DNA from: the human T2T-CHM13v2.0 reference genome, Homo sapiens | Length of the DNA stretch: 64,000 bases | Assembly (NCBI GenBank): GCA_009914755.4 | Contig: CP068257.2 | Span: forward strand, 704,001-768,000 | Direction: 5' to 3' | Part shown: positions 111 to 64,000 of the stretch, piece after piece | How the letters are laid out: each line of letters starts with the position of its first letter | Position numbering within the stretch: the stretch's first letter is position 1 | The notes under the pieces: generated by a model | Told to the model about the DNA's origin: nothing | What the model saw: the letters and a program-made list of their open reading frames with translations, nothing else | Databases searched by the model: none | Position numbers and translations under genes: made by a program

Positions 111-1948
111 CTCTGCACTGTTAACCGAGGTGATTTAAATCTTGTCTAGGCTGTGCCCACAGGGGGATTGAGACATGTCTCTGCACTGATCCCGAGGTGA
201 TCCAACTGTTGCCTGGTCTCTGCCTACTGGGGACATTGTGACATATCACTGCACTGATCACCCAGGAGAGATAAATCTTGTCTAGGCTCTGCCTACAAAG
301 GCCTTGTGACATATCTCTGCACTGATCACCCAGGTGATATAACTCTTCTCTAGGATCTGACCACAGGGTGCTTTGTGGCATTTCCCTGCAATGATCACCC
401 AGGTGATATACCACTTGCCAAGGCTCTGCCTACAGGGGCATTGCAATGTATCTCTGCACTGATCACCTCGGTCTTGTAACTCTATTCTAGGATCTGCCCA
501 CAGGGTGCCTTGTGACGTATCCCAGCAGGGATTACCCAGGTGATGTACCTCTCATCAAGGCTCTGCCTACAGGCACATTGTGATGTATCTCTGCACTGAT
601 CACCTAGGTCATGTAACTTTTGTCTAGGCTCTGCCTACGATGGCATTGTGACATATCTCTGCACTAATCATCCAAGTGATGTAACCCTTGTCTAGGATCT
701 GCCTAAATTAACTTTGTGACATAACCCTGTACTGATCATCCAGGTGATGGGGCTTTTGTCTAGGCTCTGCCTAAGGGGGCATTGTGACATATTTCTGCAT
801 TGATCACCCAGGTGGCGAACTCTTCTCTTGGATCTGCCTATGGGGGCATTGTGACAAATCTCTGCACTGATCACCCAGGTGATGTAACTGTTGTGTAACC
901 TCTGCCTACAGGGGAATTGTGAGAGATCTCGCCACTGATCACCCAAGTGATGTAACCATTGTCTAGGCTTTGCGTACAGGGGGCTTTGTGACATACCTTT
1001 GCACTGATCACCCAGGTGATGTAACACATCTAAGTTAGGCCTAAAGGAGCTTTGTGACATATCTCTGCACTGATCACTTAGGTGATGGAACACTTTTATA
1101 AGCACTGCCTACAGCGAATTTTGACAAATCTCTGCACTGATCACCTAGGTGATGTAACGCTTGTCTACCCTCTGTCCAACGGGGCATTGTGAAATATCTC
1201 TGCACTGATCACCCAGGTGATTCAACTCTTGACTAGTGTCTGCCTACAGAGGTTATTGTGAAATATCTCTGCACTGATAAACTAGGTGGTGTAATCCTTA
1301 TCGAAGCTCTGCCTACAGGGGCGTTTTCACATATCCCTGAAGTGATGACAAGGGTGATGTAACTCTTGCCTAGGCTTTGCCTACAGGGGACATAGGACAT
1401 ATATCTGCACTGATCACCCAGTTGATGCAACTGTAGCCTAGGCTTTGCCTACAGGGGACATTGTGACATATCGCTTCAATGATCACCCATGTGATGCAAC
1501 TCTTGCCTAGGCTTTGCCTACAGGGGACATTGTGACATATCTCAGCACTGATGTCCCAGGTGCTGTAACATTAGTCCAGACTCTGGCTACACGGCATTGT
1601 GACATATCACTGCACTGATCAACCAGGTGATATAACTCTTGTCTAGGCTCTGCCTACAGGGGGCTTGTGACATATCCCTGCAATGATCACCCAGGTGATC
1701 TAACTCTTGTTTAAGCTCTGCCTAAAGGGGCATTGTGACAGATCTCTGCACTGATCACTCAGGTGATGTAACTATTGTCTAGGCTCTGCTTAAAGGGGCC
1801 TCGTCACATACCTCTGCACTGATCACCCAGGTGATGTAACTCTTGTCTAGCCTCTGCTTTCACGGCATATTGTGACATATCCATGCGCTGAACACCTTAG
1901 TGATGTAACACTTGTGTAGGCTCGGCCTACAGGGGAATGTTGACATAT
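111..1948. repeat. H1: HOR copy, 1838 bp, about 27 monomers, f-like subtype. Lacks two monomers present in 29-mer copies.
   Basis: Landmark monomer 'ctctgcactgttaaccgagg' at 111, next at 1949. The 'ctcccaggtgctgtaacttt' monomer is missing after 246 and the 'ctttgcgacatat' monomer is missing near 1670. Carries the 'cccaggagagataaat' variant shared with H9 at 15781. Confidence 0.85.
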
Positions 1949-30900: not shown

Positions 30901-31347
30901 TTAGTCTAGACTCTGGCTACACGGCATTGTGACATATCACTGCACTGATCAACCAGGTGATATAACACTTGTCTAAGCCCTGCCTACAGGGGGCTTGTGA
31001 CATATCTCTGCACTGATCACCCAGGTGATATAACTCTTCTCTAGGATCTGCCTACAGGGTGCTTTGCGACATATCCCTGCAATGATCACCCAGGTGATCT
31101 AACTCTTGTTTAAGCTCTGCCTAAAGGGGCATTGTGACAGACCTCTGCACTGATCACTCAGGTGATGTAAGTATTGTCTAGGCTCTGCTTAAAGGGGCCT
31201 TGTCACATACCTCTGTACTGATCACCCAGGTGATGTAACTCTTGTCTAGCCTCTGCTTTCACTGCATATTGTGACATATCTATGCGCTGATCACCTTAGT
31301 GATGTAACACTTGTGTAGGCTCGGCCTACAGGGGAATATTGACATAT
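29375..31347. repeat. H16: HOR copy, 1973 bp, 29-mer. Chimeric: i-type head, a-type tail.
   Basis: Landmark at 29375. ORFs 30023-30205, 30135-30359 and 30202-30435 match H12. The tail from ~30965 ('tataacacttgtctaagccc') matches the H2 tail at 3537. Confidence 0.85.
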
Positions 31348-42982: not shown

Positions 42983-44956
42983 CTCTGCACTGTTAACCGA
43001 GGTGATTTAACTCTTGTCTAGGCTGTGCCCACAGGGGGATTGAGACATGTCTCTGCCATGATCCCGAGGTGATCCAACTGTTGCCTGGTCTCTGCCTACT
43101 GGGGACATTGTGACATATCTCTGCACTGATCTCCCAGGTGCTGTAATTTTAGTCTAGGCTCTGGCTACACGGCATTGTGACATATCACTGCACTGATCAC
43201 CCAGGTTATATAAATCTTGTCTAGGCTCTGCCTACAATGGCCTTGTGACATATCTCTGCACTGATCACCCAGGTGATATAACTCTTCTCTAGGATCTGAC
43301 CACAGGGTGCTTTGTGGCATTTCCCTGCAATGATCACCCAGGTGATATACCACTTGCCAAGGCTCTGCCTACAGGGGCATTGCAATGTATCTCTGCACTG
43401 ATCACCTCGGTCTTGTAACTCTTTTCTAGGATCTGCCCACAGGGTGCCTTGTGACGTATCCCAGCAAGGATTACCCAGGTGATGTACCTCTCATCAAGGC
43501 TCTGCCTACAGGCACATTGCGATGTATCTCTGCACTGATCACCTAGGTCATGTAACTTTTGTCTGGGCTCTGCCTACGATGGCATTGTGACATATCTCTG
43601 CACTAATCATCCAAGTGATGTAACCCTTGTCTAGGATCTGCCTAAATTAACTTTGTGACATAACCCTGTACTGATCATCCAGGTGATGGGGCTTTTGTCT
43701 AGGCTCTGCCTAAGGGGGCATTGTGACATATTTCTGCATTGATCACGCAGGTGGCGAACTCTTCTCTTGGATCTGCCTATGGGGGCATTGTGATAAATCT
43801 CTGCACTCATCACCCAGGTGATGTAACTGTTGTGTAACCTCTGCCTACAGGGGAATTGTGAGAGATCTCGCCACTGATCACCCAAGTGATGTAACCATTG
43901 TCTAGGCTTTGCGTACAGGGGGCTTTGTGACATACCTTTGCACTGATCACCCAGGTGATGTAACACATCTAAGTTCGGCCTAAAGGAGCTTTGTGACATA
44001 TCTCTGCACTGATCACTTAGGTGATGGAACACTTTTATAAGCACTGCCTACAGGGAATTTTGACAAATCTCTGCACTGATCACCTAGGTGATGTAATGCT
44101 TGTCTACCCTCTGTCCAACGGGGCATTGTGAAATATCTCTGCACTGATCACCCAGGTGATTCAACTCTTGACTAGGATCTGCCTACAGAGGTTATTGTGA
44201 AATATCTCTGCACTGATAAACTAGGTGGTGTAATACTTATCGAAGCTCTGCCTACAGGTGCGTTTTCACATATCCCTGAAGTGATGACAAAGGTGATGTA
44301 ACCCTTGCCTAGGCTTTGCCTACAGGGGACATAGGACATATATCTGCACTGATCACCCAGGTGATGCAACTCTAGCCTAGGCTTTGCCTACAGGGGACAT
44401 TGTGACATATCGCTTCAATGATCACCCATGTGATGCAACACTTGCCTAGGCTTTGCCTACAGGGGACATTGTGACATATCTCTGCACTGATCTCCCAGGT
44501 GCTGCAACATTAATCTAGAGTCTGGCTACACGGCATTGTGACATATCACTGCACTGATCAACCAGGTGATATAACTCTTGTCTAGGTCCTGCCTACAGAG
44601 GGCTTGTGACATATCTCTGCACTGATCACCCAGGTGATATAACTCTTCTCTAGGATCTGCCTACAGGGTGATTTGCGACATATCCCTGCAATGATAACCC
44701 AGGTGATCTAACTCTTGTTTAAGCTCTGCCTAAAGGGGCATTGTGACAGACCTGTGCACTGATCACTAAGGTGATGTAACTATTGTCTAGGCTCTGCTTA
44801 AAGGGGCCTTGTCACATACCTCTGCACTGATAACCCAGGTGATGTAACTCTTGTCTAGCCTCTGCTTTCACGGCATATTGTGACATATCCATTCGCAGAT
44901 CACCTTAGTGATGTAACAGTTGTGTAGGCTCGGCCTACAGGGGAATATTGACATAT
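42983..44956. repeat. H23: HOR copy, 1974 bp, 29-mer, subtype f. Copy of H9.
   Basis: Landmark at 42983. ORFs 43631-44044 and 44172-44369 are identical to the H9 ORFs. Local difference 'ggttatataaat' at ~43205 versus 'ggagagataaat' in H9. Confidence 0.9.
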
Positions 44957-46930: not shown

Positions 46931-48835
46931 CTCTGCACTGTTAACCGAGGTGATTTAACTCTTGTCTAGGCTGTGCCCACAGGGGAATTGAGACATGTCT
47001 CTGCACTGATCCCGAGGTGATCCAACTGTTGCCTGGTCTCTGCCTACTGGGGACATTGTGACATATCTCTGCACTGATCTCCCAGGTGCTGTAACTTTAG
47101 TCTAGGCTCTGGCTACACGGCTTTGTGAGATATCACTGCACTGATCACCCAGGTGATATAAATCTTGTCTAGGCTCTGCCTACAATGGCCTTGTGACATA
47201 TCTCTGCACTGATCACCCAGGTGATATAACTCTTCTCTAGGATCTGACCACAGGGTGCTTTGTGGCATTTCCCTGCAATGATCACCCAGGTGAAATACCA
47301 CTTGCCAAGGCTCTGCCTACAGGGGCATTGCAATATATCTCTGCACTGATCACCTCGGTCTTGCAACTCTTTTCTAGGATGTGCCCACAGGGTGCCTTGT
47401 GACGTATCCCAGCAAGGATTACCCAGGTGATGTACCTCTCATCAAGGCTCTGCCTACAGGCACATTGCGATGTATCTCTGCACTGATCACCTAGGTCATG
47501 TAACTTTTGTCTGGGCTCTGCCTACGATGGCATTGTGACATATCTCTGCACTAATCATCCAAGTGATGTAACCCTTGTCTAGGATCTGCCTAAATTAACT
47601 TTGTGACATAACCCTGTACTGATCATCCAGGTGATGGGGCTTTTGTCTAGGCTCTGCCTAAGGGGGCATTGTGACATATTTCTGCATTGATCACCCAGGT
47701 GGCGAACTCTTCTCTTGGATCTGCCTATGGGGGCATTGTGACAAATCTCTGCACTGATAACCCAGGTGATGTAACGGTTGTGTAACCTCTGCCTACAGGG
47801 GAATTGTGAGAGATCTCGCCACTGATCACCCAAGTGATGAAACCATTGTCTAGGCTTTGCGTACAGGGGGCTTTGTGACATACCTTTGCACTGATCACCC
47901 AGGTGATGTAACACATCTAAGTTCGGCCTAAAGGAGCTTTGTGACATATCTCTGCACTGATCACTTAGGTGATGGAACACTTTTATAAGCACTGCCTACA
48001 GGGAATTTTGACAAATCTCTGCACTGATCACCTAGGTGATGTAACGCTTGTCTACCCTCTGTCCAACGGGGCATTGTGAAATATCTCTGCACTGATCACC
48101 CAGGTGATTCAACTCTTGACTAGGATCTGCCTACAGAGGTTATTGTGAAATATCTCTGCACTGATAAACTAGGTGGTGTAATCCTTATCGAAGCTCTGCC
48201 TACAGGGGCGTTTTCACATATCCCTGAAGTGATGACAAAGGTGATGTAACTCTTGCCTAGGCTTTGCCTACAGGGGACATAGGACATATATCTGCACTGA
48301 TTACCCAGGTGATGCAACTGTAGCCTAGGCTTTGCCTACAGGGGACATTGTGACATATCGCTTCAATGATCACCCATGTGATGCAACTCTTGCCTAGGCT
48401 TTGCCTACAGGGGACATTGTGACATATCTCAGCACTGATGTCCCAGGTGCTGTAACATTAGTCTAGACTCTGGCTACACGGCATTGTGACATATCACTGC
48501 ACTGATCAACCAGGTGATATAACTCTTGTCTAGGCTCTGCCTACAGGGGGCTTGTGACATATCCCTGCAATGATCATCCAGGTGATCTAACTCTTGTTTA
48601 AGCTCTGCCTAAAGGGGCATTCTGACAGATCTCTGCACTGATCACTCAGGTGATGTAACTATTGTCTAGGCTCTGCTTAAAGGGGCCTTGTCACATACCT
48701 CTGCACTGATCACCAAGGTGATGTAACTCTTGTCTAGCCTCTGCTTTCACGGCATATTGTGACATATCCATGCGCTGATCACCTTAGTGATGTAACACTT
48801 GTGTAGGCTCGGCCTTCAGGGGAATATTGACATAT
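46931..48835. repeat. H25: HOR copy, 1905 bp, 28-mer, subtype b.
   Basis: Landmark at 46931. ORFs 47113 (MVFHLGDH), 47169 (MQDRGDQ) and 47579-47992 ('NRYITWVIS'). Confidence 0.9.
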
Positions 48836-50808
48836 CTCTGCACTGTTAACCGAGGTGATTTAACTCTTGTCTAGGCTGTGCCCACAGGGGGATTGAGACA
48901 TGTCTCTGCACTGATCCCGAGGTAATCCAACTGTTGCCTGGTCTCTGCCTACTGGGGACATTGTGACATATCTCTGCACTGATCTCCCAGGTGCTGTAAC
49001 TTTAGTCTAGGCTCTGGCTACACGGCATTGTGACATATCACTGCACTGATCACCCAGGTGATATAAATCTTGTCTAGGCTCTGCCTACAATGGCCTTGTG
49101 ACATATCACTGCACTGATCACCCAGGTGATATAACTCTTCTCGAGGATCTGACCACAGGGTGCTTTGTGGCATTTCCCTGCAATGATCACCCAGGTGATA
49201 TACCACTTGCCAAGGCTCTGCCTACAGGGGCATTGCAATGTATCTCTGCACTGATCACCTCGTTCTTGTAACTCTTTTCTAGGATCTGCCCACAGGGTGC
49301 CTTGTGACGTATCCCAGCAAGGATTACCCAGGTGATGTACCTCTCATCAAGGCTCTGCCTACAGGCACATTGCGATGTATCTCTACACTGATCACCTAGG
49401 TCATGTAACTTTTGTCTAGGCTCTGCCTACGATGGCATTGTGACATATCTCTGCACTAATCATCCAAGTGATGTAACCCTTGTCTAGGATCTGCCTAAAT
49501 TAACTTTGTGACATAACCCTGTACTGATCATCCAGGTGATGGGGCTTTTGTCTAGGCTCTACCTTAAGGGGGCATTGTGACATATTTCTGCATTGATCAC
49601 CCAGGTGGCGAACTCTTCTCTTGGATCTGCCTATGGGGGCATTGTGACAAATCTCTGCACTCATCACCCAGGTGATGTAACTGTTGTGTAACCTCTGCCT
49701 ACAGGGGAATTGGGAGAGATCTCGCCACTGATCACCCAAGTGATGTAACCATTGTCTAGGCTTTGCGTACAGGGGCTTTGTGACATACCTTTGCACTGAT
49801 CACCCAGGTGATGTAACACATCTAAATTCGACCTAAAGGAGCTTTGTGACATATCTCTGCACTGATCACTTAGGTGATGGAACACTTTTATAAGCACTGC
49901 CTACAGGGAATTTTGACAAATCTCTGCACTGATCACCTAGGTGATGTAACTCTTGTCTACCCTCTGTCCAACGGGGCATTGTGAAATATCTCTGCACTGA
50001 TCACCCAGGTGATTCAACTCTTGACTAGTATCTGCCTACAGAGGTTATTGTGAAATATCTCTGCACTGATAAACTAGGTGGTGTAATCCTTATCGAAGCT
50101 CTGCCTACAGGGGCGTTTTCACATATCCCTGAAGTGATGACAAAGGTGATGTAACCCTTGCCTAGGCTTTGCCTACAGGGGATATAAGACATATATCTGC
50201 ACTGATCACCCAGGTGATGCAACTCTAGCCTAGGCTTTGCCTACAGGGGACATTGTGACATATCGCTTCAATGATCACCCATGTGATGCAACAATTGCCT
50301 AGGCTTTGCCTACAGGGGACATTGTGACATAAATCTGCACTGATCTCCCAGGTGCTGTAACATTAGTCTAGACTCTGGCTACACGGCATTGTGACATGTC
50401 ACTGCACTGATCAACCAGGTGATATAACTCTTGTCTAGGCCCTGCCTACAGGGGGCTTGTGACATATCTCTGCACTGATCACCCAGGTGATATAACTCTT
50501 CTCTAGGATCTGCCTACAGGGTGCTTTGCGACATATCCCTGCAATGATCACCCAGGTGATCTAACTCTTGTTTAAGCTCTGCCTAAAGGGGCATTGTGAC
50601 AGACCTCTGCACTGATCACTCAGGTGATGTAACTATTGTCTAGGCTCTGCTTAAAGGGGCCTTGTCACATACCTCTGCACTGATCACCCAGGTGATGTAA
50701 CTCTTGTCTAGACTCTGTTTCACGGCATATTGTGACATATCTATGCGCTGATCACCTTAGTGATGTAACACTTGTGTAGGCTCGGCCTACAGGGGAATAT
50801 TGACATAT
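48836..50808. repeat. H26: HOR copy, 1973 bp, 29-mer, subtype a.
   Basis: Landmark at 48836. ORFs 49018 ('DQCSDMSQ'), 49500, 49664 and 50025 ('MSYIPCRQ...GRY'). Confidence 0.9.
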
Positions 50809-52713
50809 CTCTGCACTGTTAACCGAGGTGATTTAACTCTTGTCTAGGCTGTGCCCACAGGGGGATTGAGACATGTCTCTGCACTGATCCCGAGGTGATC
50901 CAACTGTTGCCTGGTCTCTGCCTACTGGGGACATTGTGACATATCTCTGCACTGATCTCCCAGGTGCTGTAACTTTAGTCTAGGCTCTGGCTACACGGCA
51001 TTGTGACATATCACTGCACTGATCACCCAGGTGATATAAATCTTGTCTAGGCTCTACCTACAATGGCCTTGTGACATATCTCTGCACTGATCACCCAGGT
51101 GATATAACTCTTCTCTAGGATCTGACCACAGGGTGCTTTGTGGCATTTCCCTGCAATGATCACCCAGGTGATATACCACTTGCCAAGGCTCTGCCTACAG
51201 GGGCATTGCAATGTATCTCTGCACTGATCACCTCGGTCTTGTAACTCTTTTCTAGGATCTGCCCACAGGGTGCCTTGTGACGTATCCCAGCAAGGATTAC
51301 CCAGGTGATGTACCTCTCATCAAGGCTCTGCCTACAGGCACATTGCGATGTATCTCTGCTCTGATCACCTAAGTCATGTAACTTTTGTCTAGGCTCTGCC
51401 TACGATGGCATTGTGACAAATCTCTGCACTAATCATCCAAGTGATGTAACCCTTGTCTAGGATCTGCCTAAAGTAACTTTGTGACATAACCCTGTACTGA
51501 TCATCCAGGTGATGCGGCTTTTGTCTAGGCTCTGCCTAAGGGGGCATTGTGACATATTTCTGCATTGATCACCCAGGTGGCGAACTCTTCTCTTGGATCT
51601 GCCTATGGGGGCATTGTGACAAATCTCTGCACTGATCACCCAGGTGATGTAACTGTTGTGTAACCTCTGCCTACAGGGGAATTGTGTGAGATCTCGCCAC
51701 TGATCACCCAAGTGATGTAACCATTGTCTAGGCTTTGCGTACAGGGGGCTTTGTGACATACCTTTGCACTGATCACCCAGGTGATGTAACACATCTAAGT
51801 TCGGCCTAAAGGAGCTTTGTGACATATCTCTGCACTGATCACTTAGGTGATGGAACACTTTTATAAGCACTGCCTACAGGGAATTTTGACAAATCTCTGC
51901 ACTGATCACCTAGGTGATGTAACGCTTGTCTACCCTCTGTCCAACGGGGCATTGTGAAATATCTCTGCACTGATCACCCAGGTGATTCAACTCTTGACTA
52001 GGATCTGCCTACAGAGGTTATTGTGAAATATCTCTGCACTGATAAACTAGGTGGTGTAATCCTTATCGAAGCTCTGCCTGCAGGGGCGTTTTCACATATC
52101 CCTGAATTGATGACAAAGGTGATGTAACCCTTGCCTAGGCTTTGCCTACAGGGGACATAGGACATATATCTGCACTGATCACCCAGGTGATGCAACTCTA
52201 GCCTAGGCTTTGCCTACAGGGGACATTGTGACATATCTCTGCACTGATCTCCCAGGTGCTGTAACATTAGTCTAGACTCTGGCTACACGGCATTGTGACA
52301 TATCACTGCACTGATCAACCAGGTGATATAACTCTTGTCTAGGCCCTGACTACAGGGGGCTTGTGACATATCTCTGCACTGATCACCCAGGTGATATAAC
52401 TCTTCTCTAGGGTCTGCCTACAGGGTGCTTTGCGACGTATCCCTGCAATGATCACCCAGGTGATCTAACTCTTGTTTAAGCTCTGCCTAAAGGGGCATTG
52501 TGACAGACCTCTGCACTGATCACTCAGGTGATGTAACTATTGTCTAGGCTCTGCTTAAAGGGGCCTTGTCACATACCTCTGCACTGATCACCCAGGTGAT
52601 GTAACTCTTGTCTAGACTCTGCTTTCACGGCATATTGTGACATATCTATGCGCTGATCACCTTAGTGATGTAACACTTCTGTAGGCTCGGCCTACAGGGG
52701 AATATTGACATAT
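50809..52713. repeat. H27: HOR copy, 1905 bp, 28-mer, subtype d.
   Basis: Landmark at 50809. ORFs 51457-51870 and 51998-52195 are identical to the H21 ORFs. Confidence 0.9.
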
Positions 52714-54687
52714 CTCTGCACTGTTAACCGAGGTGATTTAACTCTTGTCTAGGCTGTGCCCACAGGGGGTTTGAGACATGTCTCTGCACTGATCCCGAGG
52801 TGATCCAACTGTTGCCTGGTCTCTGCCTACTGGGGACATTGTGACATATCTCCGCACTGATCTCCCAGGTGCTGTAATTTTAGTCTAGGCTCTGGCTACA
52901 CGGCATTGTGACATATCACTGCACTGATCACCCAGGTGATATAAATCTTGTCTAGGCTCTGCCTACAATGACCTTGTGACATATCTCTGCACTGATCACC
53001 CAGGTGATATAACTCTTCTCTAGGATCTGACCACAGGGTGCTTTGTGGCATTTCCCTGCAATGATCACCGAGGTGATATACCACTTGTCAGGGCTCTGCC
53101 TACAGGGGCATTGCAACGTATCTCTGCACTGATCACCACGGTCTTGTAACTCTTTTCTAGGATCTGCCCACAGGGTGCCTTGTGACGTATCCCAGCAAGG
53201 ATTACCCAGGTGATGTACCTCTCATCAAGGCTCTGCCTACAGGCACATTGCGATGTATCTCTGCACTGATCACCTAGGTCATGTAACTTTTGTCTAGGCT
53301 CTGCCTACGATGGCATTGTGACATATCTCTGCACTAATCATCCAAGTGATGTAACCCTTGTCTAGGATCTGCCTAAATTAACTTTGTGACGTAACCCTGT
53401 ACTGATCATCCAGGTGATGGGGCTTTTGTCTAGGCTCTGCCTAAGGGGGCATTGTGACTTATTTCTGCATTGATCACCCAGGTGGCGAACTCTTCTCTTG
53501 GATCTGCCTATGGGGGCATTGTGACAAATCTCTGCACTGATCACCCAGGTGATGTAACTGTTGTGTAACCTCTGCCTACAGGGGAATTGTGAGAGATCTC
53601 GCCACTGATCACCCAAGTGACGTAACCATTGTCTAGGCTTTGCGTACAGGGGGCTTTGTGACATACCTTTGCACTGATCACCCAGGTGATGTAACACATC
53701 TAAGTTCGGCCTAAAGGAGCTTTGTGACATATCTCTGCACTGATCACCTAGGTGATGGAACACTTTTATAAGCACTGCCTACAGGGAATTTTGACAAATC
53801 TCTGCACTGATCACCTAGGTGATGTAACTCTTGTCTACCCTCTGTCCAACGGGGCATTGTGAAATATCTCTGCACTGATCACCCAGGTGATTCAACTCTT
53901 GACTAGGATCTGCCTACAGAGGTTATTGTGAAATATCTCTGCACTGATAAACTAGGTGGTGTAATCCTTATCGAAGCTCTGCCTACAGGGGCGTTTTCAC
54001 ATATCCCTGAAGTGATGACAAAGGTGATGTAACTCTTGCCTAGGCTTTGCCTACAGGGGACATAGGACATATATCTGCGCTGATCACCCAGGTGATGCAA
54101 CTCTAGCCTAGGCTTTGCCTACAGGGGACATTGTGACATATCGCTTCAATGATCACCCATGTGATGCAACTCTTGCCTTGGCTTTGCCTACAGGGGACAT
54201 TGTGACATATCTCTGCACTGATCTCCCATGTGCTGTAACATTAGTCTAGACTCTGGCTACACGGCATTGTGACATATCACTGCACTAATCAACCAGGTGA
54301 TATAACTCTTGTCTAGGCCCTGCCTACAGGGGGCTTGTGACATATCTCTGCACTGATCACCCAGGTGATATAACTCTTCTCTAGGGTCTGCCTACAGGGT
54401 GCTTTGCGACATATCCCTGCAATGATCACCCAGGTGATCTAACTCTTGTTTAAGCTCTGCCTAAAGGGGCATTGTGACAGATCTCTGCACTGATCACTCA
54501 GGTGATGTAACTATTGTCTAGGCTCTGCTTAAAGGGGCCTTGTCACATACCTCTGCACTGATCACCCAGGTGATGTAACTCTTGTCTAGCCTCTGCTTTC
54601 ACGGCATATTGTGACATATCTATGCGCTGATCACCTTAGTGATGTAACACTTGTGTAGGCTCGGCCTACAGGGGAATATTGACATAT
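52714..54687. repeat. H28: HOR copy, 1974 bp, 29-mer, subtype e.
   Basis: Landmark at 52714. ORFs 53362-53775 ('GLRHKVNLGRS') and 53903-54100. Confidence 0.9.
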
Positions 54688-56796
54688 CTCTGCACTGTTA
54701 ACCGAGGTGATTTAACTCTTGTCTAGGCTGTGCCCACAGGGGGATTGAGACATGTCTCTGCCATGATCCCGAGGTGATCCAACTGTTGCCTGGTCTCTGC
54801 CTACTGGGGACATTGTGACATATCTCTGCACTGATCTCCCAGGTGCTGTAATTTTAGTCTAGGCTCTGGCTACACGGCATTGTGACATATCACTGCACTG
54901 ATCACCCAGGTTATATAAATCTTGTCTAGGCTCTGCCTACAATGGCCTTGTGACATATCTCTGCACTGATCTCCCAGGTGCTGTAACTTTAGTCTAGGCT
55001 CTGGCTACACGGCATTGTGACATACCACTGCACTGATCACCCAGGTGATATAAATCTTGTCTAGGCTCTGCCTACAATGGCCTTGTGACATATCTCTGCA
55101 CTGATCACCCAGGTGATATAACTCTTCTCTAGGATCTGACCACAGGGTGCTTTGTGGCATTTCCCTGCAATGATCACCCAGGTGATATACCACTTGCCAA
55201 GGCTCTGCCTACAGGGGCATTGCAATGTATCTCTGCACTGATCACCTCGGTCTTGTAACTCTTTTCTAGGATCTGCCCACAGGGTGCCTTGTGACGTATC
55301 CCAGCAAGGATTACCCAGGTGATGTACCTCTCATCAAGGCTCTGCCTACAGGCACATTGCGATGTATCTCTGCACTGATCACCTAGGTCATGTAACTTTT
55401 GTCTGGGCTCTGCCTACGATGGCATTGTGACATATCTCTGCACTAATCATCCAAGTGATGTAACCCTTGTCTAGGATCTGCCTAAATTAACTTTGTGACA
55501 TAACCCTGTACTGATCATCCAGGTGATGGGGCTTTTGTCTAGGCTCTGCCTAAGGGGGCATTGTGACATATTTCTGCATTGATCACGCAGGTGGCGAACT
55601 CTTCTCTTGGATCTGCCTATGGGGGCATTGTGATAAATCTCTGCACTCATCACCCAGGTGATGTAACTGTTGTGTAACCTCTGCCTACAGGGGAATTGTG
55701 AGAGATCTCGCCACTGATCACGCAAGTGATGTAACCATTGTCTAGGCTTTGCGTACAGGGGGCTTTGTGACATACCTTTGCACTGATCACCCAGGTGATG
55801 TAACACATCTAAGTTCGGCCTAAAGGAGCTTTGTGACATATCTCTGCACTGATCACTTAGGTGATGGAACACTTTTATAAGCACTGCCTACAGGGAATTT
55901 TGACAAATCTCTGCACTGATCACCTAGGTGATGTAACGCTTGTCTACCCTCTGTCCAACGGGGCATTGTGAAATATCTCTGCACTGATCACCCAGGTGAT
56001 TCAACTCTTGACTAGGATCTGCCTACAGAGGTTATTGTGAAATATCTCTGCACTGATAAACTAGGTGGTGTAATACTTATCGAAGCTCTGCCTACAGGTG
56101 CGTTTTCACATATCCCTGAAGTGATGACAAAGGTGATGTAACCCTTGCCTAGGCTTTGCCTACAGGGGACATAGGACATATATCTGCACTGATCACCCAG
56201 GTGATGCAACTCTATCCTAGGCTTTGCCTACAGGGGACATTGTGACATATCGCTTCAATGATCACCCATGTGATGCAACACTTGCCTAGGCTTTGCCTAC
56301 AGGGGACATTGTGACATATCTCTGCACTGATCTCCCAGGTGCTGCAACATTAATCTAGAGTCTGGCTACACGGCATTGTGACATATCACTGCACTGATCA
56401 ACCAGGTGATATAACTCTTGTCTAGGTCCTGCCTACAGAGGGCTTGTGACATATCTCTGCACTGATCACCCAGGTGATATAACTCTTCTCTAGGATCTGC
56501 CTACAGGGTGCTTTGCGACATATCCCTGCAATGATAACCCAGGTGATCTAACTCTTGTTTAAGCTCTGCCTAAAGGGGCATTGTGACAGACCTGTGCACT
56601 GATCACTAAGGTGATGTAACTATTGTCTAGGCTCTGCTTAAAGGGGCCTTGTCACATACCTCTGCACTGATAACCCAGGTGATGTAACTCTTGTCTAGCC
56701 TCTGCTTTCACGGCATATTGTAACATATCCATTCGCAGATCACCTTAGTGATGTAACAGTTGTGTAGGCTCGGCCTACAGGGGAATATTGACATAT
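54688..56796. repeat. H29: HOR copy, 2109 bp, 31-mer, subtype f. Contains an extra monomer pair.
   Basis: Landmark at 54688, next at 56797. Two-monomer tandem duplication at 54824-55093. ORFs 55471-55884 ('MSAEIYHNAP', 'RHLRDQ') and 56012-56209 ('ASISITPP'). Confidence 0.9.
54824..55093. repeat. Tandem duplication of a monomer pair (X Y X' Y'; +135 bp) that creates the 31-mer HOR H29.
   Basis: X 54824-54890 and X' 54959-55025 both carry 'ctgatctcccaggtgctgtaa(t/c)tttagtctaggctctggctacacggc'. Y 54891-54958 and Y' 55026-55093 both carry 'cactgcactgatcacccaggt(t/g)atataaatcttg'. X and Y resemble the H23 copy at 43125-43260. X' and Y' resemble the H30 copy at 56933-57068. Confidence 0.9.
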
Positions 56797-58769
56797 CTCT
56801 GCACTGTTAACCGAGGTGATTTAACTCTTGTCTAGGCTGTGCCCACAGGGGGATTGAGACATGTCTCTGCACTGATCCCGAGGTGATCCAACTGTTGCCT
56901 GGTCTCTGCCTACTGGGGACATTGTGACATATCTCTGCACTGATCTCCCAGGTGCTGTAACTTTAGTCTAGGCTCTGGCTACACGGCATTGTGACATATC
57001 ACTGCACTGATCACCCAGGTGATATAAATCTTGTCTAGGCTCTGCCTACAATGGCCTTGTGACATATCTCTGCACTGATCACCCAGGTGATATAACTCTT
57101 CTCTAGGATCTGACCACAGGGTGCTTTGTGGCATTTCCCTGCAATGATCACCCAGGTGATATACCACTTGCCAAGGCTCTGCCTACAGGGGCATTGCAAT
57201 GTATCTCTGCACTGATCACCTCGGTCTTGTAACTCTTTTCTAGGACCTGCCCACCGGGTGCCTTGTGACGTATCCCAGCAAGGATTACCCAGGTGATGTA
57301 CCTCTCATCAAGGCTCTGCCTACAGGCACATTGCGATGTATCTCTGCACTGATCACCTAGGTCATGTAACTTTTGTCTAGGCTCTGCCTACGATGGCATT
57401 GTGACATATCTCTGCACTAATCATCCAAGTGATGTAACCGTTGTCTAGGATCTGCCTAAATTAACTTTGTGACATAACCCTGTACTGATCATCCAGGTGA
57501 TGGGGCTTTTGTCTAGGCTCTGCCTAAGGGGGCATTGTGACATATTTCTGCATTGATCACCCAGGTGGCGAACTCTTCTCTTGGATCTGCCTATGGGGGC
57601 ATTGTGACAAATCTCTGCACTGATCACCCAGGTGATATAACTGTTGTGTAACCTCTGCCTACAGGGGAATTGTGAGAGATCTCGCCACTGATCACCCAAG
57701 TGATGTAACCATTGTCTAGGCTTTGCGTACAGGGGGCTTTGTGACATACCTTTGCACTGATCACCCAGGTGATGTAACACATCTAAGTTCGGCCTAAAGG
57801 AGCTTTGTGACATATCTCTGCACTGATCACTTAGGTGATGGAACACTTTTATAAGCACTGCCTACAGGGAATTTTGACAAATCTCTGCACTGATCACCTA
57901 GGTGATGTAATGCTTGTCTACCCTCTGTCCAACGGGGCATTGTGAAATATCTCTGCACTGATCACCCAGGTGATTCAACTCTTGACTAGGATCTGCCTAC
58001 AGAGGTTATTGTGAAATATCTCTGCACTGATAAACTAGGTGGTGTAATCCTTATCGAAGCTCTGCCTACAGGTGCGTTTTCACATATCCCTGAAGTGATG
58101 ACAAAGGTGATGTAACCCTTGCCTAGGCTTTGCCTACAGGGGACATAGGACATATATCTGCACTGATCACCCAGGTGATGCAACTGTAGCCTAGGCTTTG
58201 CCTACAGGGGACATTGTGACATATCGCTTCAATGATCACCCGTGTGATGCAACTCTTGCCTAGGCTTTGCCTACAGGGGACATTGTGACATATCTCTGCA
58301 CTGATCTCCCAGGTGCTGTAACATTAGTCCAGACTCTGGCTACACGGCATTGTGACATATCACTGCACTGATCAACCAGGTGATATAACTCTTGTCTAGG
58401 CCCTGCCTACAGGGGGCTTGTGACATATCTCTGCACTGATCACCCAGGTGATATAACTCTTCTCTAGGATCTGCCTACAGGGTGCTTTGCGACATATCCC
58501 TGCAATGATCACCCAGGTGATCTAACTCTTGTTTAAGCTCTGCCTAAAGGGGCATTGTGACAGACCTCTGCACTGATCACTCAGGTGATGTAACTATTGT
58601 CTAGGCTCTGCTTAAAGGGGCCTTGTCACATACCTCTGCACTGATCACCCAGGTGATGTAACTCTTGTCTAGACTCTGTTTCACGGCATATTGTGACATA
58701 TCTATGCGCTGATCACCTTAGTGATGTAACACTTGTGTAGGCTCGGCCTACAGGGGAATATTGACATAT
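56797..58769. repeat. H30: HOR copy, 1973 bp, 29-mer, g-like subtype.
   Basis: Landmark at 56797. 'taggacctgcccaccgggtg' at ~57241, as in H24. ORFs 57445-57858 and 57986-58183. Confidence 0.85.
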
Positions 58770-60741
58770 CTCTGCACTGTTAACCGAGGTGATTTAACTC
58801 TTGTCTAGGCTGTGCCCACAGGGTGATTGAGACATGTCTCTGCACTGATCCCGAGGTGATCCAACTGTTGCCTGGTCTCTGCCTACTGGGGACATTGTGA
58901 CATATCTCTGCACTGATCTCCCAGGTGCTGTAACTTTAGTCTAGGCTCTGGCTACACGGCATTGTGACATATCACTGCACTGATCACCCAGGTGATATAA
59001 ATCTTGTCTAGGCTCTGCCTACAATGGCCTTGTGACATATCTCTGCACTGATCACCCAGGTGATATAACTCTTCTCTAGGATCTGACCACAGGGTGCTTT
59101 GTGGCATTTCCCTGCAATGATCACCCAGGTGATATACCACTTGCCAAGGCTCTGCCTACAGGGGCATTGCAATGTATCTCTGCACTGATCACCTCGGTCT
59201 TGTAACTCTTTTCTAGGATCTGCCCACAGGGTGCCTTGTGACGTATCCCAGCAAGGATTACCCAGGTGATGTACCTCTCATCAAGGCTCTGCCTACAGGC
59301 ACATTGCGATGTATCTCTGCTCTGATCACCTAAGTCATGTAACTTTTGTCTAGGCTCTGCCTACGATGGCATTGTGACAAATCTCTGCACTAATCATCCA
59401 AGTGATGTAACCCTTGTCTAGGATCTGCCTAAAGTAACTTTGTGACATAACCCTGTACTGATCATCCAGGTGATGGGGCTTTTGTCTAGGCTCTGCCTAA
59501 GGGGGCATTGTGACATATTTCTGCATTGATCACCCAGGTGGCGAACTCTTCTCTTGGATCTGCCTATGGGGGCATTGTGACAAATCTCTGCACTCATCAC
59601 CCAGGTGATGTAACTGTTGTGTAACCTCTGCCTACAGGGGAATTGGGAGAGATCTCGCCACTGATCACCCAAGTGATGTAACCATTGTCTAGGCTTTGCG
59701 TACAGGGGCTTTGTGACATACCTTTGCACTGATCACCCAGGTGATGTAACACATCTAAATTCGACCTAAAGGAGCTTTGTGACATATCTCTGCACTGATC
59801 ACTTAGGTGATGGAACACTTTTATAAGCACTGCCTACAGGGAATTTTGACAAATCTCTGCACTGATCACCTAGGTGATGTAACTCTTGTCTACCCTCTGT
59901 CCAACGGGGCATTGTGAAATATCTCTGCACTGATCACCCAGGTGATTCAACTCTTGACTAGTATCTGCCTACAGAGGTTATTGTGAAATATCTCTGCACT
60001 GATAAACTAGGTGGTGTAATCCTTATCGAAGCTCTGCCTACAGGGGCGTTTTCACATATCCCTGAAGTGATGACAAAGGTGATGTAACCCTTGCCTAGGC
60101 TTTGCCTACAGGGGATATAAGACATATATCTGCACTGATCACCCAGGTGATGCAACTCTAGCCTAGGCTTTGCCTACAGGGGACATTGTGACATATCGCT
60201 TCAATGATCACCCATGTGATGCAACAATTGCCTAGGCTTTGCCTACAGGGGACATTGTGACATAAATCTGCACTGATCTCCCAGGTGCTGTAACATTAGT
60301 CTAGACTCTGGCTACACGGCATTGTGACATGTCACTGCACTGATCAACCAGGTGATATAACTCTTGTCTAGGCCCTGCCTACAGGGGGCTTGTGACATAT
60401 CTCTGCACTGATCACCCAGGTGATATAACTCTTCTCTAGGATCTGCCTACAGGGTGCTTTGCGACATATCCCTGCAATGATCACCCAGGTGATCTAACTC
60501 TTGTTTAAGCTCTGCCTAAAGGGGCATTGTGACAGACCTCTGCACTGATCACTCAGGTGATGTAACTATTGTCTAGGCTCTGCTTAAAGGGGCCTTGTCA
60601 CATACCTCTGCACTGATCACCCAGGTGATGTAACTCTTGTCTAGACTCTGTTTCACGGCATATTGTGACATATCTATGCGCTGATCACCTTAGTGATGTA
60701 ACACTTGTGTAGGCTCGGCCTACAGGGGAATATTGACATAT
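58770..60741. repeat. H31: HOR copy, 1972 bp, 29-mer, subtype a. Copy of H26.
   Basis: Landmark at 58770. ORFs 59597-59830 and 59958-60155 are identical to 49664-49897 and 50025-50222. Confidence 0.9.
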
Positions 60742-62646
60742 CTCTGCACTGTTAACCGAGGTGATTTAACTCTTGTCTAGGCTGTGCCCACAGGGGGATT
60801 GAGACATGTCTCTGCACTGATCCCGAGGTGATCCAACTGTTGCCTGGTCTCTGCCTACTGGGGACATTGTGACATATCTCTGCACTGATCTCCCAGGTGC
60901 TGTAACTTTAGTCTAGGCTCTGGCTACACGGCATTGTGACATATCACTGCACTGATCACCCAGGTGATATAAATCTTGTCTAGGCTCTACCTACAATGGC
61001 CTTGTGACATATCTCTGCACTGATCACCCAGGTGATATAACTCTTCTCTAGGATCTGACCACAGGGTGCTTTGTGGCATTTCCCTGCAATGATCACCCAG
61101 GTGATATACCACTTGCCAAGGCTCTGCCTACAGGGGCATTGCAATGTATCTCTGCACTGATCACCTCGGTCTTGTAACTCTTTTCTAGGATCTGCCCACA
61201 GGGTGCCTTGTGACGTATCCCAGCAAGGATTACCCAGGTGATGTACCTCTCATCAAGGCTCTGCCTACAGGCACATTGCGATGTATCTCTGCTCTGATCA
61301 CCTAAGTCATGTAACTTTTGTCTAGGCTCTGCCTACGATGGCATTGTGACAAATCTCTGCACTAATCATCCAAGTGATGTAACCCTTGTCTAGGATCTGC
61401 CTAAAGTAACTTTGTGACATAACCCTGTACTGATCATCCAGGTGATGCGGCTTTTGTCTAGGCTCTGCCTAAGGGGGCATTGTGACATATTTCTGCATTG
61501 ATCACCCAGGTGGCGAACTCTTCTCTTGGATCTGCCTATGGGGGCATTGTGACAAATCTCTGCACTGATCACCCAGGTGATGTAACTGTTGTGTAACCTC
61601 TGCCTACAGGGGAATTGTGTGAGATCTCGCCACTGATCACCCAAGTGATGTAACCATTGTCTAGGCTTTGCGTACAGGGGGCTTTGTGACATACCTTTGC
61701 ACTGATCACCCAGGTGATGTAACACATCTAAGTTCGGCCTAAAGGAGCTTTGTGACATATCTCTGCACTGATCACTTAGGTGATGGAACACTTTTATAAG
61801 CACTGCCTACAGGGAATTTTGACAAATCTCTGCACTGATCACCTAGGTGATGTAACGCTTGTCTACCCTCTGTCCAACGGGGCATTGTGAAATATCTCTG
61901 CACTGATCACCCAGGTGATTCAACTCTTGACTAGGATCTGCCTACAGAGGTTATTGTGAAATATCTCTGCACTGATAAACTAGGTGGTGTAATCCTTATC
62001 GAAGCTCTGCCTGCAGGGGCGTTTTCACATATCCCTGAATTGATGACAAAGGTGATGTAACCCTTGCCTAGGCTTTGCCTACAGGGGACATAGGACATAT
62101 ATCTGCACTGATCACCCAGGTGATGCAACTCTAGCCTAGGCTTTGCCTACAGGGGACATTGTGACATATCTCTGCACTGATCTCCCAGGTGCTGTAACAT
62201 TAGTCTAGACTCTGGCTACACGGCATTGTGACATATCACTGCACTGATCAACCAGGTGATATAACTCTTGTCTAGGCCCTGACTACAGGGGGCTTGTGAC
62301 ATATCTCTGCACTGATCACCCAGGTGATATAACTCTTCTCTAGGGTCTGCCTACAGGGTGCTTTGCGACGTATCCCTGCAATGATCACCCAGGTGATCTA
62401 ACTCTTGTTTAAGCTCTGCCTAAAGGGGCATTGTGACAGACCTCTGCACTGATCACTCAGGTGATGTAACTATTGTCTAGGCTCTGCTTAAAGGGGCCTT
62501 GTCACATACCTCTGCACTGATCACCCAGGTGATGTAACTCTTGTCTAGACTCTGCTTTCACGGCATATTGTGACATATCTATGCGCTGATCACCTTAGTG
62601 ATGTAACACTTGTGTAGGCTCGGCCTACAGGGGAATATTGACATAT
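60742..62646. repeat. H32: HOR copy, 1905 bp, 28-mer, subtype d. Copy of H27.
   Basis: Landmark at 60742. ORFs 61390-61803 and 61931-62128 are identical to the H27 ORFs. Confidence 0.9.
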
Positions 62647-64000
62647 CTCTGCACTGTTAACCGAGGTGATTTAACTCTTGTCTAGGCTGTGCCCACAGGG
62701 GGTTTGAGACATGTCTCTGCACTGATCCCGAGGTGATCCAACTGTTGCCTGGTCTCTGCCTACTGGGGACATTGTGACATATCTCCGCACTGATCTCCCA
62801 GGTGCTGTAATTTTAGTCTAGGCTCTGGCTACACGGCATTGTGACATATCACTGCACTGATCACCCAGGTGATATAAATCTTGTCTAGGCTCTGCCTACA
62901 ATGACCTTGTGACATATCTCTGCACTGATCACCCAGGTGATATAACTCTTCTCTAGGATCTGACCACAGGGTGCTTTGTGGCATTTCCCTGCAATGATCA
63001 CCGAGGTGATATACCACTTGTCAGGGCTCTGCCTACAGGGGCATTGCAACGTATCTCTGCACTGATCACCACGGTCTTGTAACTCTTTTCTAGGATCTGC
63101 CCACAGGGTGCCTTGTGACGTATCCCAGCAAGGATTACCCAGGTGATGTACCTCTCATCAAGGCTCTGCCTACAGGCACATTGCGATGTATCTCTGCACT
63201 GATCACCTAGGTCATGTAACTTTTGTCTAGGCTCTGCCTACGATGGCATTGTGACATATCTCTGCACTAATCATCCAAGTGATGTAACCCTTGTCTAGGA
63301 TCTGCCTAAATTAACTTTGTGACGTAACCCTGTACTGATCATCCAGGTGATGGGGCTTTTGTCTAGGCTCTGCCTAAGGGGGCATTGTGACTTATTTCTG
63401 CATTGATCACCCAGGTGGCGAACTCTTCTCTTGGATCTGCCTATGGGGGCATTGTGACAAATCTCTGCACTGATCACCCAGGTGATGTAACTGTTGTGTA
63501 ACCTCTGCCTACAGGGGAATTGTGAGAGATCTCGCCACTGATCACCCAAGTGACGTAACCATTGTCTAGGCTTTGCGTACAGGGGGCTTTGTGACATACC
63601 TTTGCACTGATCACCCAGGTGATGTAACACATCTAAGTTCGGCCTAAAGGAGCTTTGTGACATATCTCTGCACTGATCACCTAGGTGATGGAACACTTTT
63701 ATAAGCACTGCCTACAGGGAATTTTGACAAATCTCTGCACTGATCACCTAGGTGATGTAACTCTTGTCTACCCTCTGTCCAACGGGGCATTGTGAAATAT
63801 CTCTGCACTGATCACCCAGGTGATTCAACTCTTGACTAGGATCTGCCTACAGAGGTTATTGTGAAATATCTCTGCACTGATAAACTAGGTGGTGTAATCC
63901 TTATCGAAGCTCTGCCTACAGGGGCGTTTTCACATATCCCTGAAGTGATGACAAAGGTGATGTAACTCTTGCCTAGGCTTTGCCTACAGGGGACATAGGA
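62647..64000. repeat. H33: partial HOR copy (5' 1354 bp), subtype e. Copy of H28.
   Basis: Landmark at 62647. ORF 63295-63708 is identical to 53362-53775. The copy is cut by the window end. Confidence 0.85.

What the first reader, a model, noticed from the sequence alone, without database searches (positions are those of the whole stretch)
54824..55093. 31-mer HOR created by an out-of-register (two-monomer) exchange between two different HOR subtypes
In H29 the monomer pair X-Y is present twice in tandem (X 54824-54890, Y 54891-54958, X' 54959-55025, Y' 55026-55093). The first pair carries the f-lineage variants 'gctgtaatttt' and 'ggttatataaat', as in H23 at 43141-43210. The second pair carries the common variants 'gctgtaacttt' and 'ggtgatataaat' plus a private 'gacatac'. 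The extra 135 bp therefore looks like the product of an unequal crossover, shifted by two monomers, between an f-type and a non-f-type HOR, not a replication-slippage copy of itself. The same X monomer is the one deleted in the 27-mer H1 (absent after position 246), pointing to a recurrent register-slip site.
Basis: seen in the sequence. Interest (0 to 1): 0.5.

Follow-up and report, generated by a model that had tools for sequence, protein, structure and literature searches.

The report
Two-monomer duplication in a satellite repeat
One 2-kb repeat unit in a long beta-satellite-type array carries a real extra pair of 68-bp monomers that was not simply copied from its neighbour, but the unit belongs to one subtype on both sides, so this is an ordinary satellite length variant and not a hybrid of two subtypes.

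Summary
The window is one 68-bp satellite array arranged as 33 higher-order repeats (HORs) of about 29 monomers (1974 bp). H29 (54551-56659) is the only 31-mer (2109 bp), with monomer order 1-4,5,6,5,6,7-29.

The first pair, X-Y (54824-54958), is identical to the same pair in H23. The second pair, X'-Y' (54959-55093), equals the array consensus plus a private T>C at 55025. The pairs differ at 3 of 135 positions.

A fresh self-copy is excluded. A single crossover between an f-type and a non-f-type HOR is also contradicted:
- H29 carries f-specific markers upstream (54762-3) and at 15 sites downstream (55405-56608).
- It differs from H23 at only 4 of 1974 positions, against at least 29 for any non-f HOR.
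- It keeps its d-e-f-g neighbour order.

X'-Y' is therefore an island of consensus-type sequence, 61 to 492 bp long, inside an f-type HOR. It is joined within a 24-bp identity, TTGTGACATAT|CTCTGCACTGATC.

The best reading is an out-of-register, conversion-type (non-crossover) repair event. The rivals are exchange between two f sublineages, an old duplication, and an assembly artefact. This is a known kind of satellite variant and of low interest.

The parts
54551..56659 (+). H29, the only 31-monomer (2109-bp) higher-order repeat in the window. It is f-type (H9/H23/H29 lineage) over its whole length.
   Evidence: Monomer decomposition. 4 differences from H23 against at least 29 from any non-f HOR. 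f markers at 54762-3 and at 15 sites between 55405 and 56608.
54824..54958 (+). First m5-m6 pair (X 54824-54890, Y 54891-54958). Carries T at 54852 and T at 54912 and is identical to H23 43119-43253.
54959..55093 (+). Second m5-m6 pair (X' 54959-55025, Y' 55026-55093). Array-consensus sequence plus a private C at 55025. Identical, apart from that base, to the m5-m6 pair of 8 HORs, including the adjacent H30.
54948..54971 (+). 24-bp breakpoint window TTGTGACATAT|CTCTGCACTGATC, shared exactly by the m4|m5 and m6|m7 junctions. The register-shifted join must lie inside it. Equivalent copies lie at 54813-54836 and 55083-55106.
   Evidence: Tied third-longest exact match at a two-monomer offset in the HOR.
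54913..55404 (+). Maximal extent of the tract that lacks f-specific alleles. The minimal extent is 54987-55047. f markers bound it at 54912 and 55405.
   Evidence: Candidate donors and where each one stops matching.
54496..55721 (+). Stretch in which H28/H29 shows no difference from H22/H23 on either side of X'-Y' (1090 aligned bp). This makes X'-Y' an island of 3 differences.
   Evidence: (135/1225)^3 = 0.0013.
43119..43253 (+). H23 m5-m6 pair, the exact counterpart of X-Y, in the paralogous block H21-H24.
179..314 (+). H1 m4 is followed directly by m6. Monomer 5 (67 bp) is absent after position 246, with a 14-bp breakpoint homology CATTGTGACATATC.

Best explanation
H29 is an f-type higher-order repeat of a beta-satellite-like 68-bp array. 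It gained one extra m5-m6 pair (135 bp) through an out-of-register, homology-guided repair event of the non-crossover (gene-conversion or SDSA-like) kind.

Proposed steps:
1. A break or stalled end near the m6|m7 junction of an f-type HOR paired two monomers out of register. It used the 24-bp sequence TTGTGACATAT|CTCTGCACTGATC, which is identical at the m4|m5 and m6|m7 junctions.
2. It copied m5-m6 from another HOR copy that carries the consensus alleles. Eight such copies are in the window, including the neighbouring H30.
3. It then rejoined its own f-type sequence, at the m6|m7 junction or at the latest before 55405.
4. A private T>C at 55025 arose afterwards.

A two-step version gives the same product and is included here as a sub-variant: a self-duplication followed by a short in-register conversion of the second pair.

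Shown: the 31-mer structure, the three differences, the f-type identity of both flanks, the 24-bp junction identity, and the 61-492 bp bounds of the non-f tract.

Inferred: the direction of transfer, the non-crossover mechanism, and that one event rather than two produced it.
For: - Structure and differences.
- Both flanks are f-type. There are 2 f-specific markers upstream, 54762-3 in m4. All 15 downstream markers are f-state. H29 shows 4 differences from H23 against at least 29 from non-f HORs.
- The block order d-e-f-g is conserved across H7-10, H21-24 and H27-30, so no flank was swapped.
- X'-Y' is an island. There are 3 differences in 135 bp and none in the 462 bp before or the 628 bp after. 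The probability that all three fall there is 0.0013.
- A fresh self-copy is unlikely: P = 0.003 at the H23/H29 divergence. The chance that two random substitutions restore both marker sites to the consensus base is about 4e-5.
- The join lies in a 24-bp exact identity, among the longest available at a two-monomer offset.
- Short-tract exchange between HORs is common in this array. The four-gamete minimum is Rm = 17. A 3-site cluster in H9 m6, two derived bases with a consensus base between them, is shared only with H1.
- From established knowledge: non-crossover SDSA is the main outcome of mitotic homologous repair. Gene conversion and unequal exchange are the accepted homogenising processes in satellite arrays (PMC9549924).
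Against: - Only three informative sites lie in the pair and only four differences elsewhere, so all statistics are small-number and partly post hoc.
- The consensus alleles in X'-Y' are probably also the ancestral f-lineage alleles, so they do not prove a foreign donor.
- Only 64 kb of the array is visible. An f-type copy with a consensus m5-m6 pair could exist outside the window.
- No donor can be named. Eight HORs fit equally well.
- No read-level evidence was available.
Confidence: 0.5

Rival explanations
1. A single unequal (two-monomer-shifted) crossover between two f-type copies. One was H23-like and supplied m1-m6 with T/T. The other was a basal f sublineage, or an allelic copy on the homologue, that kept the ancestral consensus m5-m6 and supplied m5-m29. 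On this view X'-Y' is H29's own resident pair.
For: - All 7 differences between H23 and H29 (read through X'-Y') lie downstream of the junction, and none lies in the 408 bp upstream.
- At cols 301, 1252 and 1826 H29 has the consensus base where H9 and H23 share a derived base. This gives a consistent tree (H29,(H9,H23)).
- Both flanks would be f-type and the block order would be kept.
- It needs only one event.
Against: - The 3 differences cluster in the first 135 bp, followed by 628 bp with none (P = 0.014 for 3 or more of 7 in that segment).
- Zero upstream differences is uninformative (P = 0.22).
- H28 differs from H22 at 54483 and 54495, right up to the H29 border. So the H23-like tract would be only about 460 bp long if H23 itself stands for the donor, which is again patch-like.
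- No f-type copy with a consensus pair is seen in the window.
Confidence: 0.2
2. An old self-duplication of m5-m6 early in the f lineage, by slippage or sister-chromatid exchange. The two copies then diverged by ordinary point mutation. The 29-mer f-types H9 and H23 arose later by deletion of the second pair.
For: - f-specific substitutions elsewhere in the HOR (17 in 1839 bp) predict about 2.5 differences between two 135-bp copies over the age of the f lineage. Three are observed.
- Exact-monomer deletions are common in this array.
- A 98%-identical tandem pair is inherently prone to deletion (established knowledge).
Against: - It needs two structural events.
- Both shared derived alleles must fall in the copy that H23 kept.
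- It also requires the T at col 301, which all e-type HORs share, to be a coincidence or a separate conversion.
- Only one 31-mer is seen among the three f-type copies in the window.
Confidence: 0.1
3. One reading: one unequal crossover, shifted by two monomers, between an f-type HOR (upstream) and a non-f-type HOR (downstream).
For: X-Y carries T/T as in H23, and X'-Y' carries the common alleles.
Against: - All 15 downstream f-diagnostic sites (55405-56608) are in the f state.
- H29 differs from H23 at 4 of 1974 positions and from any non-f HOR at 29 or more.
- The downstream neighbour H30 is the expected g-type partner, as in H24.
- A second, in-register switch back to f-type within 492 bp would be needed, and that is no longer a single crossover.
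Confidence: 0.03
4. An assembly or polishing artefact. Either the extra 135 bp is a false duplication, or a true identical slippage copy was 'corrected' toward the array consensus by mis-mapped reads.
For: - Satellite arrays are hard to assemble.
- Two of the three differences are consensus-ward, which is the direction that polishing with mis-mapped reads would produce (inference).
- The junction 44-mer was not found in any public metagenome contig, although no contig from the same array was recovered at all.
Against: - The private C at 55025 cannot come from consensus-ward polishing.
- The copies are in exact monomer register, with a clean homology-bounded junction.
- Whole-monomer indels are the normal form of HOR variation (PMC9549924).
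Confidence: 0.06

Closest known systems
Structural variants (StVs) of alpha-satellite higher-order repeats, that is, whole-monomer insertions and deletions produced by out-of-register exchange (review PMC9549924; classic D17Z1 13- to 16-mer variants, from my own knowledge of Waye & Willard 1986 and Warburton et al. 1993)
   Same: - A gain of whole monomers inside an otherwise canonical HOR.
- A breakpoint in a short stretch that is identical between non-adjacent monomers.
- The variant sits in a block of related HOR haplotypes.
- Unequal exchange and gene conversion are invoked as the cause.
   Different: - The monomer is 68 bp (beta-satellite type), not 171 bp.
- There is no CENP-B-box context.
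- The flanks show that the added pair is a short patch with a history different from both sides. This points to a non-crossover event rather than the textbook crossover.
Human beta satellite (Sau3A family) HOR arrays, pB3 on chromosome 9 and pB4 on the acrocentric short arms (PMC8125562; bioRxiv 10.1101/2021.07.12.452052)
   Same: - A 68-bp monomer.
- A GATC (Sau3A) site in most monomers.
- Multimeric HOR organisation in long homogeneous arrays.
   Different: The chromosome and the named subfamily could not be determined with these tools. I found no description of a 29-mer/1974-bp unit or its 31-mer variant in the papers I could search.
Out-of-register break-induced replication model for HOR array change (Rice 2019, bioRxiv 10.1101/731471)
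   Same: It explains register shifts in tandem arrays by re-initiation at a homologous point after fork collapse.
   Different: BIR from the sister chromatid would copy everything downstream from an identical template. It would therefore give two identical pairs. Here the added pair differs from the first, while both flanks match the same lineage.
Smith (1976) unequal sister-chromatid crossover model of tandem-repeat evolution (cited in PMC9549924)
   Same: An out-of-register alignment of repeats gives a gain of whole repeat units.
   Different: A sister exchange predicts identical copies. A crossover between different HOR subtypes predicts a subtype switch at the junction. Neither is seen here.

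Membership tests
Beta satellite (Sau3A family) DNA | Tandem monomers of about 68 bp | tested here: met
   TRF reports a 68-bp period with 940 copies over 1-63992. Monomer lengths are 66-69 bp.
Beta satellite (Sau3A family) DNA | A Sau3A (GATC) site in the monomer | tested here: met
   775 of 939 monomers contain GATC.
Beta satellite (Sau3A family) DNA | Monomers organised in multimeric higher-order repeats | tested here: met
   Periods of 1974, 1905 and 2109 bp. A 29-monomer HOR is resolved, with copies 98-99.8% identical while monomers are about 77% identical to one another.
Beta satellite (Sau3A family) DNA | Sequence match to the published beta-satellite consensus and a primate genomic origin | not testable with these tools
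   - No reference consensus is held, and a literature search for k-mers found nothing.
- Indirect evidence: paralogous copies (82-97% identity) occur as low-coverage contaminant contigs in bacterial assemblies and in metagenomes. That pattern is typical of human DNA contamination (inference).
   All 15 downstream f-diagnostic sites remain in the f state. Overall there are 4 differences from H23.
   A 24-bp exact identity between the m4|m5 and m6|m7 junctions.
Replication-slippage or sister-chromatid self-duplication | The two copies are identical, or differ only by random later mutations | tested here: not met
   3 differences in 135 bp, two of them at the lineage-marker sites and carrying the consensus base. 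An old duplication is not excluded.
Non-crossover (gene-conversion or SDSA-type) transfer | A short tract with a different history, flanked on both sides by the recipient's own lineage | tested here: met
   The non-f tract is 61-492 bp, bounded by f markers at 54912 and 55405. There are no differences from H23 in the 462 bp before and the 628 bp after it.
Non-crossover (gene-conversion or SDSA-type) transfer | An identifiable donor, with the donor left unchanged | tested here: inconclusive
   Eight HORs carry the exact consensus pair (H4, 7, 10, 18, 21, 26, 30, 31). None can be singled out.

The most novel reading that the evidence does not exclude
Changes in monomer number in this beta-satellite HOR family are concentrated at one recurrent register-slip site. 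That site is the m4|m5 junction and its internal paralogue m24-m27, and all breakpoints contain the boundary motif GACATATC. At least some gains would arise by short out-of-register conversion patches rather than crossovers. HOR length would then evolve by a non-reciprocal, homology-length-dependent process that leaves the flanking haplotype intact.
Probability: 0.25. Interest if true: 0.35.

Novelty: new member of a known kind. Interest (0 to 1): 0.2.

Why it matters
If the reading is right, this is a clean, base-resolved case in which a satellite HOR gained whole monomers through a short patch-like transfer, with the same lineage on both sides, rather than through a crossover.

That bears on the long-running question of whether unequal crossing-over, gene conversion or replication-restart drives HOR length change. 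The question has been studied far less in beta satellites than in alpha satellites.

The case also gives a concrete test. The 9,933-bp five-HOR duplication that contains the 31-mer predicts a second 31-mer just beyond the window. Taken alone it is a single event resting on few informative sites, and the phenomenon (whole-monomer HOR variants) is well known.

Tried and rejected
- Global MAFFT alignment of H21-H25 against H27-H31 slipped by a whole HOR and was discarded. Per-HOR alignments were used instead.
- I searched public collections for independent copies of the Y|X' junction and found none in metagenome contigs.
- A monomer-5-specific 45-mer retrieved 20 contigs and none from viral contigs. 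All 20 are paralogous arrays at 82-97% identity, and only one of the 18 f-marker 21-mers was found in any of them (55634, in L019). They could not test whether f-type copies with a consensus m5-m6 exist, nor confirm the 31-mer.
- A literature search for monomer k-mers found nothing. The original beta-satellite paper (PMC297815) is not held.
- I considered whether X' derives from the 97%-similar monomer 25 and rejected it. X' carries the m5-specific bases.
- I considered coding or structured-RNA content. Only a chance 137-aa ORF recurs once per HOR, outside the finding, and there is no Rfam match.
- A test for heterogeneity upstream versus downstream of the junction was uninformative (P = 0.22).

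Full report
**What the window is**

The whole 64-kb window is one uninterrupted tandem array with a 68-bp period: 940 copies, about 76% identity between monomers, and 47% G+C throughout. K-mer spacing shows higher-order periods of 1974 bp (dominant), 1905 bp and, once, 2109 bp.

I cut the array into 939 monomers with a wrap-around alignment and classified each against 29 reference monomers.
- Most HORs are 29-mers.
- H3, 6, 17, 20 and 25 lack monomer 27.
- H7, 21, 27 and 32 lack monomer 24.
- H1 lacks monomers 5 and 27.
- H29 (54551-56659) alone is a 31-mer, reading 1-4, 5, 6, 5, 6, 7-29.

Three features fit the beta satellite (Sau3A family) as described in PMC8125562 and bioRxiv 10.1101/2021.07.12.452052: the 68-bp unit, the GATC site in 775 of 939 monomers, and the HOR organisation. 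I could not compare the sequence with a reference consensus.

**Checking the observation**

X-Y (54824-54958) is base-for-base identical to the m5-m6 pair of H23 (43119-43253). X'-Y' (54959-55093) equals the array consensus, and the pair of the neighbouring H30, except for a private T>C at 55025.

The pairs differ at three positions: 54852/54987 (T/C), 54890/55025 (T/C) and 54912/55047 (T/G). GGTTATATAAAT occurs only in H23 and H29, and the 'gacatac' variant is unique.

One correction is needed. GCTGTAATTTT is not specific to the f lineage. It is also present in all four e-type HORs (H8, 22, 28, 33), which sit immediately upstream of the f-type HORs.

The period-135 identity extends from 54813 to 55106, that is 2 x 135 + 24 bp. 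The join must therefore lie inside the 24-bp sequence TTGTGACATAT|CTCTGCACTGATC, which is identical at the m4|m5 and m6|m7 junctions. That is tied for third-longest among exact matches at a two-monomer offset anywhere in the HOR.

**Not a fresh self-copy**

H29 and H23 differ at 4 of 1974 positions outside the insertion. At that divergence 135 bp should carry about 0.29 differences, so three or more has P = 0.003. Two of the three differences fall exactly on the two sites where the first pair departs from the consensus, and they carry the consensus base. For random substitutions that has a chance of about 4e-5.

**Not a crossover between an f-type and a non-f-type HOR**

I aligned all HORs and listed the alleles shared by H23 and H29 but rare or absent elsewhere. 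Besides the two sites in X-Y, there are two markers upstream (54762-3 in m4). There are also 15 downstream, from 55405 (m11) to 56608 (m29).

H29 has the f allele at every one of them. Its nearest non-f relative differs at 31 positions and H23's at 29, against 4 between H29 and H23.

H29 also keeps its neighbours. The order d (28-mer lacking m24), e, f, g recurs in H7-10, H21-24 and H27-30. A single crossover with a non-f HOR would have replaced both the downstream markers and the downstream neighbours.

**What the flanks say**

I compared block H27-30 with block H21-24. Differences are scattered through H27 (6), H28 (13, the last at 54483 and 54495) and H30 (21). From 54496 to 55721, however, there is no difference at all on either side of X'-Y': 462 bp before it and 628 bp after it.

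X'-Y' is thus an island of three differences in a 1.2-kb stretch with none. The chance that all three fall there is 0.0013. The tract lacking f alleles is at least 54987-55047 (61 bp) and at most 54913-55404 (492 bp).

A short tract with its own history, flanked on both sides by the same lineage, is the signature of a non-crossover transfer. Exchange between HOR copies is clearly frequent here. The four-gamete test needs at least 17 exchanges among the HORs. Several HORs are visible mosaics (H24, H31, H16, H14). H9's monomer 6 carries a 3-site cluster, two derived bases with a consensus base between them, shared only with H1.

**Most likely mechanism**

I favour an out-of-register, homology-guided repair event of the gene-conversion or SDSA type. 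An end at the m6|m7 junction of an f-type HOR paired with the identical 24 bp at an m4|m5 junction of another copy. It copied one consensus-type m5-m6 pair and returned to its own sequence. The C at 55025 arose later.

Eight HORs carry the exact donor sequence, among them the adjacent H30. A two-step version, self-duplication followed by a short in-register conversion, gives the same product. I give the patch model in these two forms about 0.5.

The structure, the flank identities, the tract bounds and the junction identity are shown. The direction of transfer, the mechanism and the number of steps are inferred.

**Rivals**

(a) A single two-monomer-shifted crossover between two f-type copies. 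One is H23-like. The other is a basal f sublineage, or a homologue allele, that kept the ancestral consensus pair.
- For: all differences from H23 lie downstream of the junction. At three sites (cols 301, 1252, 1826) H29 has the consensus base where H9 and H23 share a derived one.
- Against: the clustering of differences in X'-Y', followed by 628 clean bases (P = 0.014).
- I give it about 0.2.

(b) An old duplication early in the f lineage, followed by deletion of the second pair in the ancestor of H9 and H23.
- For: the rate of f-specific substitutions predicts about 2.5 differences between the copies, close to the three seen.
- Against: it needs two structural events.
- I give it about 0.1.

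(c) An assembly or polishing artefact.
- Consensus-ward polishing could explain two of the differences, but it cannot explain the private C.
- Reads are needed to settle this.
- I give it about 0.06.

**The 'recurrent slip site' remark**

H1 does lack monomer 5 (67 bp) after position 246, with 14 bp of breakpoint homology. This is a one-monomer shift, but it uses the same m4|m5 junction.

More broadly, all four kinds of whole-monomer change in the window fall in monomers 4-7 or 24-27. Those two segments are internal paralogues: m5/m25, m6/m26 and m7/m27 differ by 2, 7 and 5 edits against a mean of 16. All four breakpoint windows contain GACATATC at the monomer boundary. The m24 deletion uses the longest one-monomer-offset match in the HOR, 37 bp.

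Paralogous arrays recovered as contaminant contigs also vary at this place: '4 5 27 8', '4 5 6 27 8', and a diverged '3 4 3 4 5' duplication in L020. This supports a homology-driven hotspot. However, the events are few, the test is post hoc, and the external contigs are short-read assemblies from other arrays (82-97% identity).

**Comparison with what is known**

Whole-monomer structural variants occur in all alpha-satellite HORs and are attributed to unequal exchange and conversion (PMC9549924). Out-of-register BIR has been proposed as an alternative (10.1101/731471). H29 is the beta-satellite counterpart of such a variant.

It differs from the textbook crossover picture only in that the added pair behaves as a short patch. 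Out-of-register BIR or sister exchange alone would give identical pairs, which is not what is seen. I therefore class it as a new member of a known kind, of modest interest.

**Limits**

Only 64 kb of the array is visible, and there are few informative sites. No reads, population data or reference consensus were available. The source genome is not identified.

Noticed in passing
window 3787-46793; 38968-58633; 50673-63937; 19370-31210: Nested multi-HOR duplications.
- A 14-HOR unit (27,424 bp) relates H3-H10 to H17-H24, with 3-10 differences per HOR.
- A 6-HOR offset (11,705 bp) relates H21-24 to H27-30.
- A 5-HOR offset (9,933 bp) relates H27-28 to H32-33. H27 and H32 are identical over 1904 bp.
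- A 4-HOR offset (7,894 bp) relates H11-12 to H15-16.
The 9,933-bp unit contains the 31-mer, so the next HOR beyond the window (H34) is predicted to be another 31-mer.
   Followed up: partly
HOR monomers 5-7 and 25-27, e.g. window 19643-19846 and 21004-21208: The HOR contains an internal three-monomer paralogy. m5/m25, m6/m26 and m7/m27 differ by 2, 7 and 5 edits, against a mean of 16 for all monomer pairs. In H5 and H19 monomer 25 has moved one base closer to m5.
   Followed up: partly
H1 246/247; d-type HORs lacking m24 (e.g. H27 about 52220); a-type HORs lacking m27 (e.g. H3 about 5550); H29 54948-54971: All four kinds of whole-monomer indel in the window have breakpoint windows that include the monomer-boundary motif GACATATC. 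The exact homologies are 14, 37, 8 and 24 bp. The m24 deletion uses the longest one-monomer-offset match in the HOR.
   Followed up: partly
window about 15782-15785 (H9 m6) and about 267-270 (H1 m6): H9's monomer 6 reads GGAGAGATAAAT instead of GGTGATATAAAT. Only H1 shares this cluster of changes, and H1 is otherwise a different HOR type. It looks like a short conversion patch.
   Followed up: no
H24 44820-46793, H31 58634-60605, H16 29238-31210, H14 25290-27263: Several HORs are mosaics of two subtypes along their length. For example, H24 is H10/H30-like in monomers 1-12 and H5/H19-like afterwards. The four-gamete minimum number of exchanges among HORs is 17.
   Followed up: partly
window minus strand, once per HOR, e.g. 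55471-55884: A 137-aa ORF with a GTG start recurs in 22 of the HORs (monomers about 14-20). It is most likely a chance open frame propagated by the repeat. I did not test it for homology.
   Followed up: no
L014-L020 (e.g. BMRF01000120.1 Actinomadura cremea JCM 3308; BMTN01000074.1 Streptomyces kurssanovii JCM 4388) and L001-L013: Seven contigs filed under bacterial or archaeal genome assemblies, and 13 metagenome contigs, consist of this 68-bp satellite at 82-97% identity to the window. At least two of the 'bacterial genome' contigs are low-coverage nodes by their names. They look like host (probably human) DNA contamination in public microbial records.
   Followed up: partly
L020 340-611: A paralogous array has a two-monomer duplication of m3-m4 (order 1 2 3 4 3 4 5 26 27 8) with diverged copies. 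It lies immediately beside the same m4|m5 junction used in H29 and H1.
   Followed up: partly
window 13742, 41166, 52871, 62804 (e-type) and 15716, 43140, 54845 (f-type): The C>T variant GCTGTAATTTT in monomer 5 is shared by two otherwise distinct HOR subtypes (e and f) that are always adjacent. This suggests in-register transfer between neighbouring HORs.
   Followed up: no
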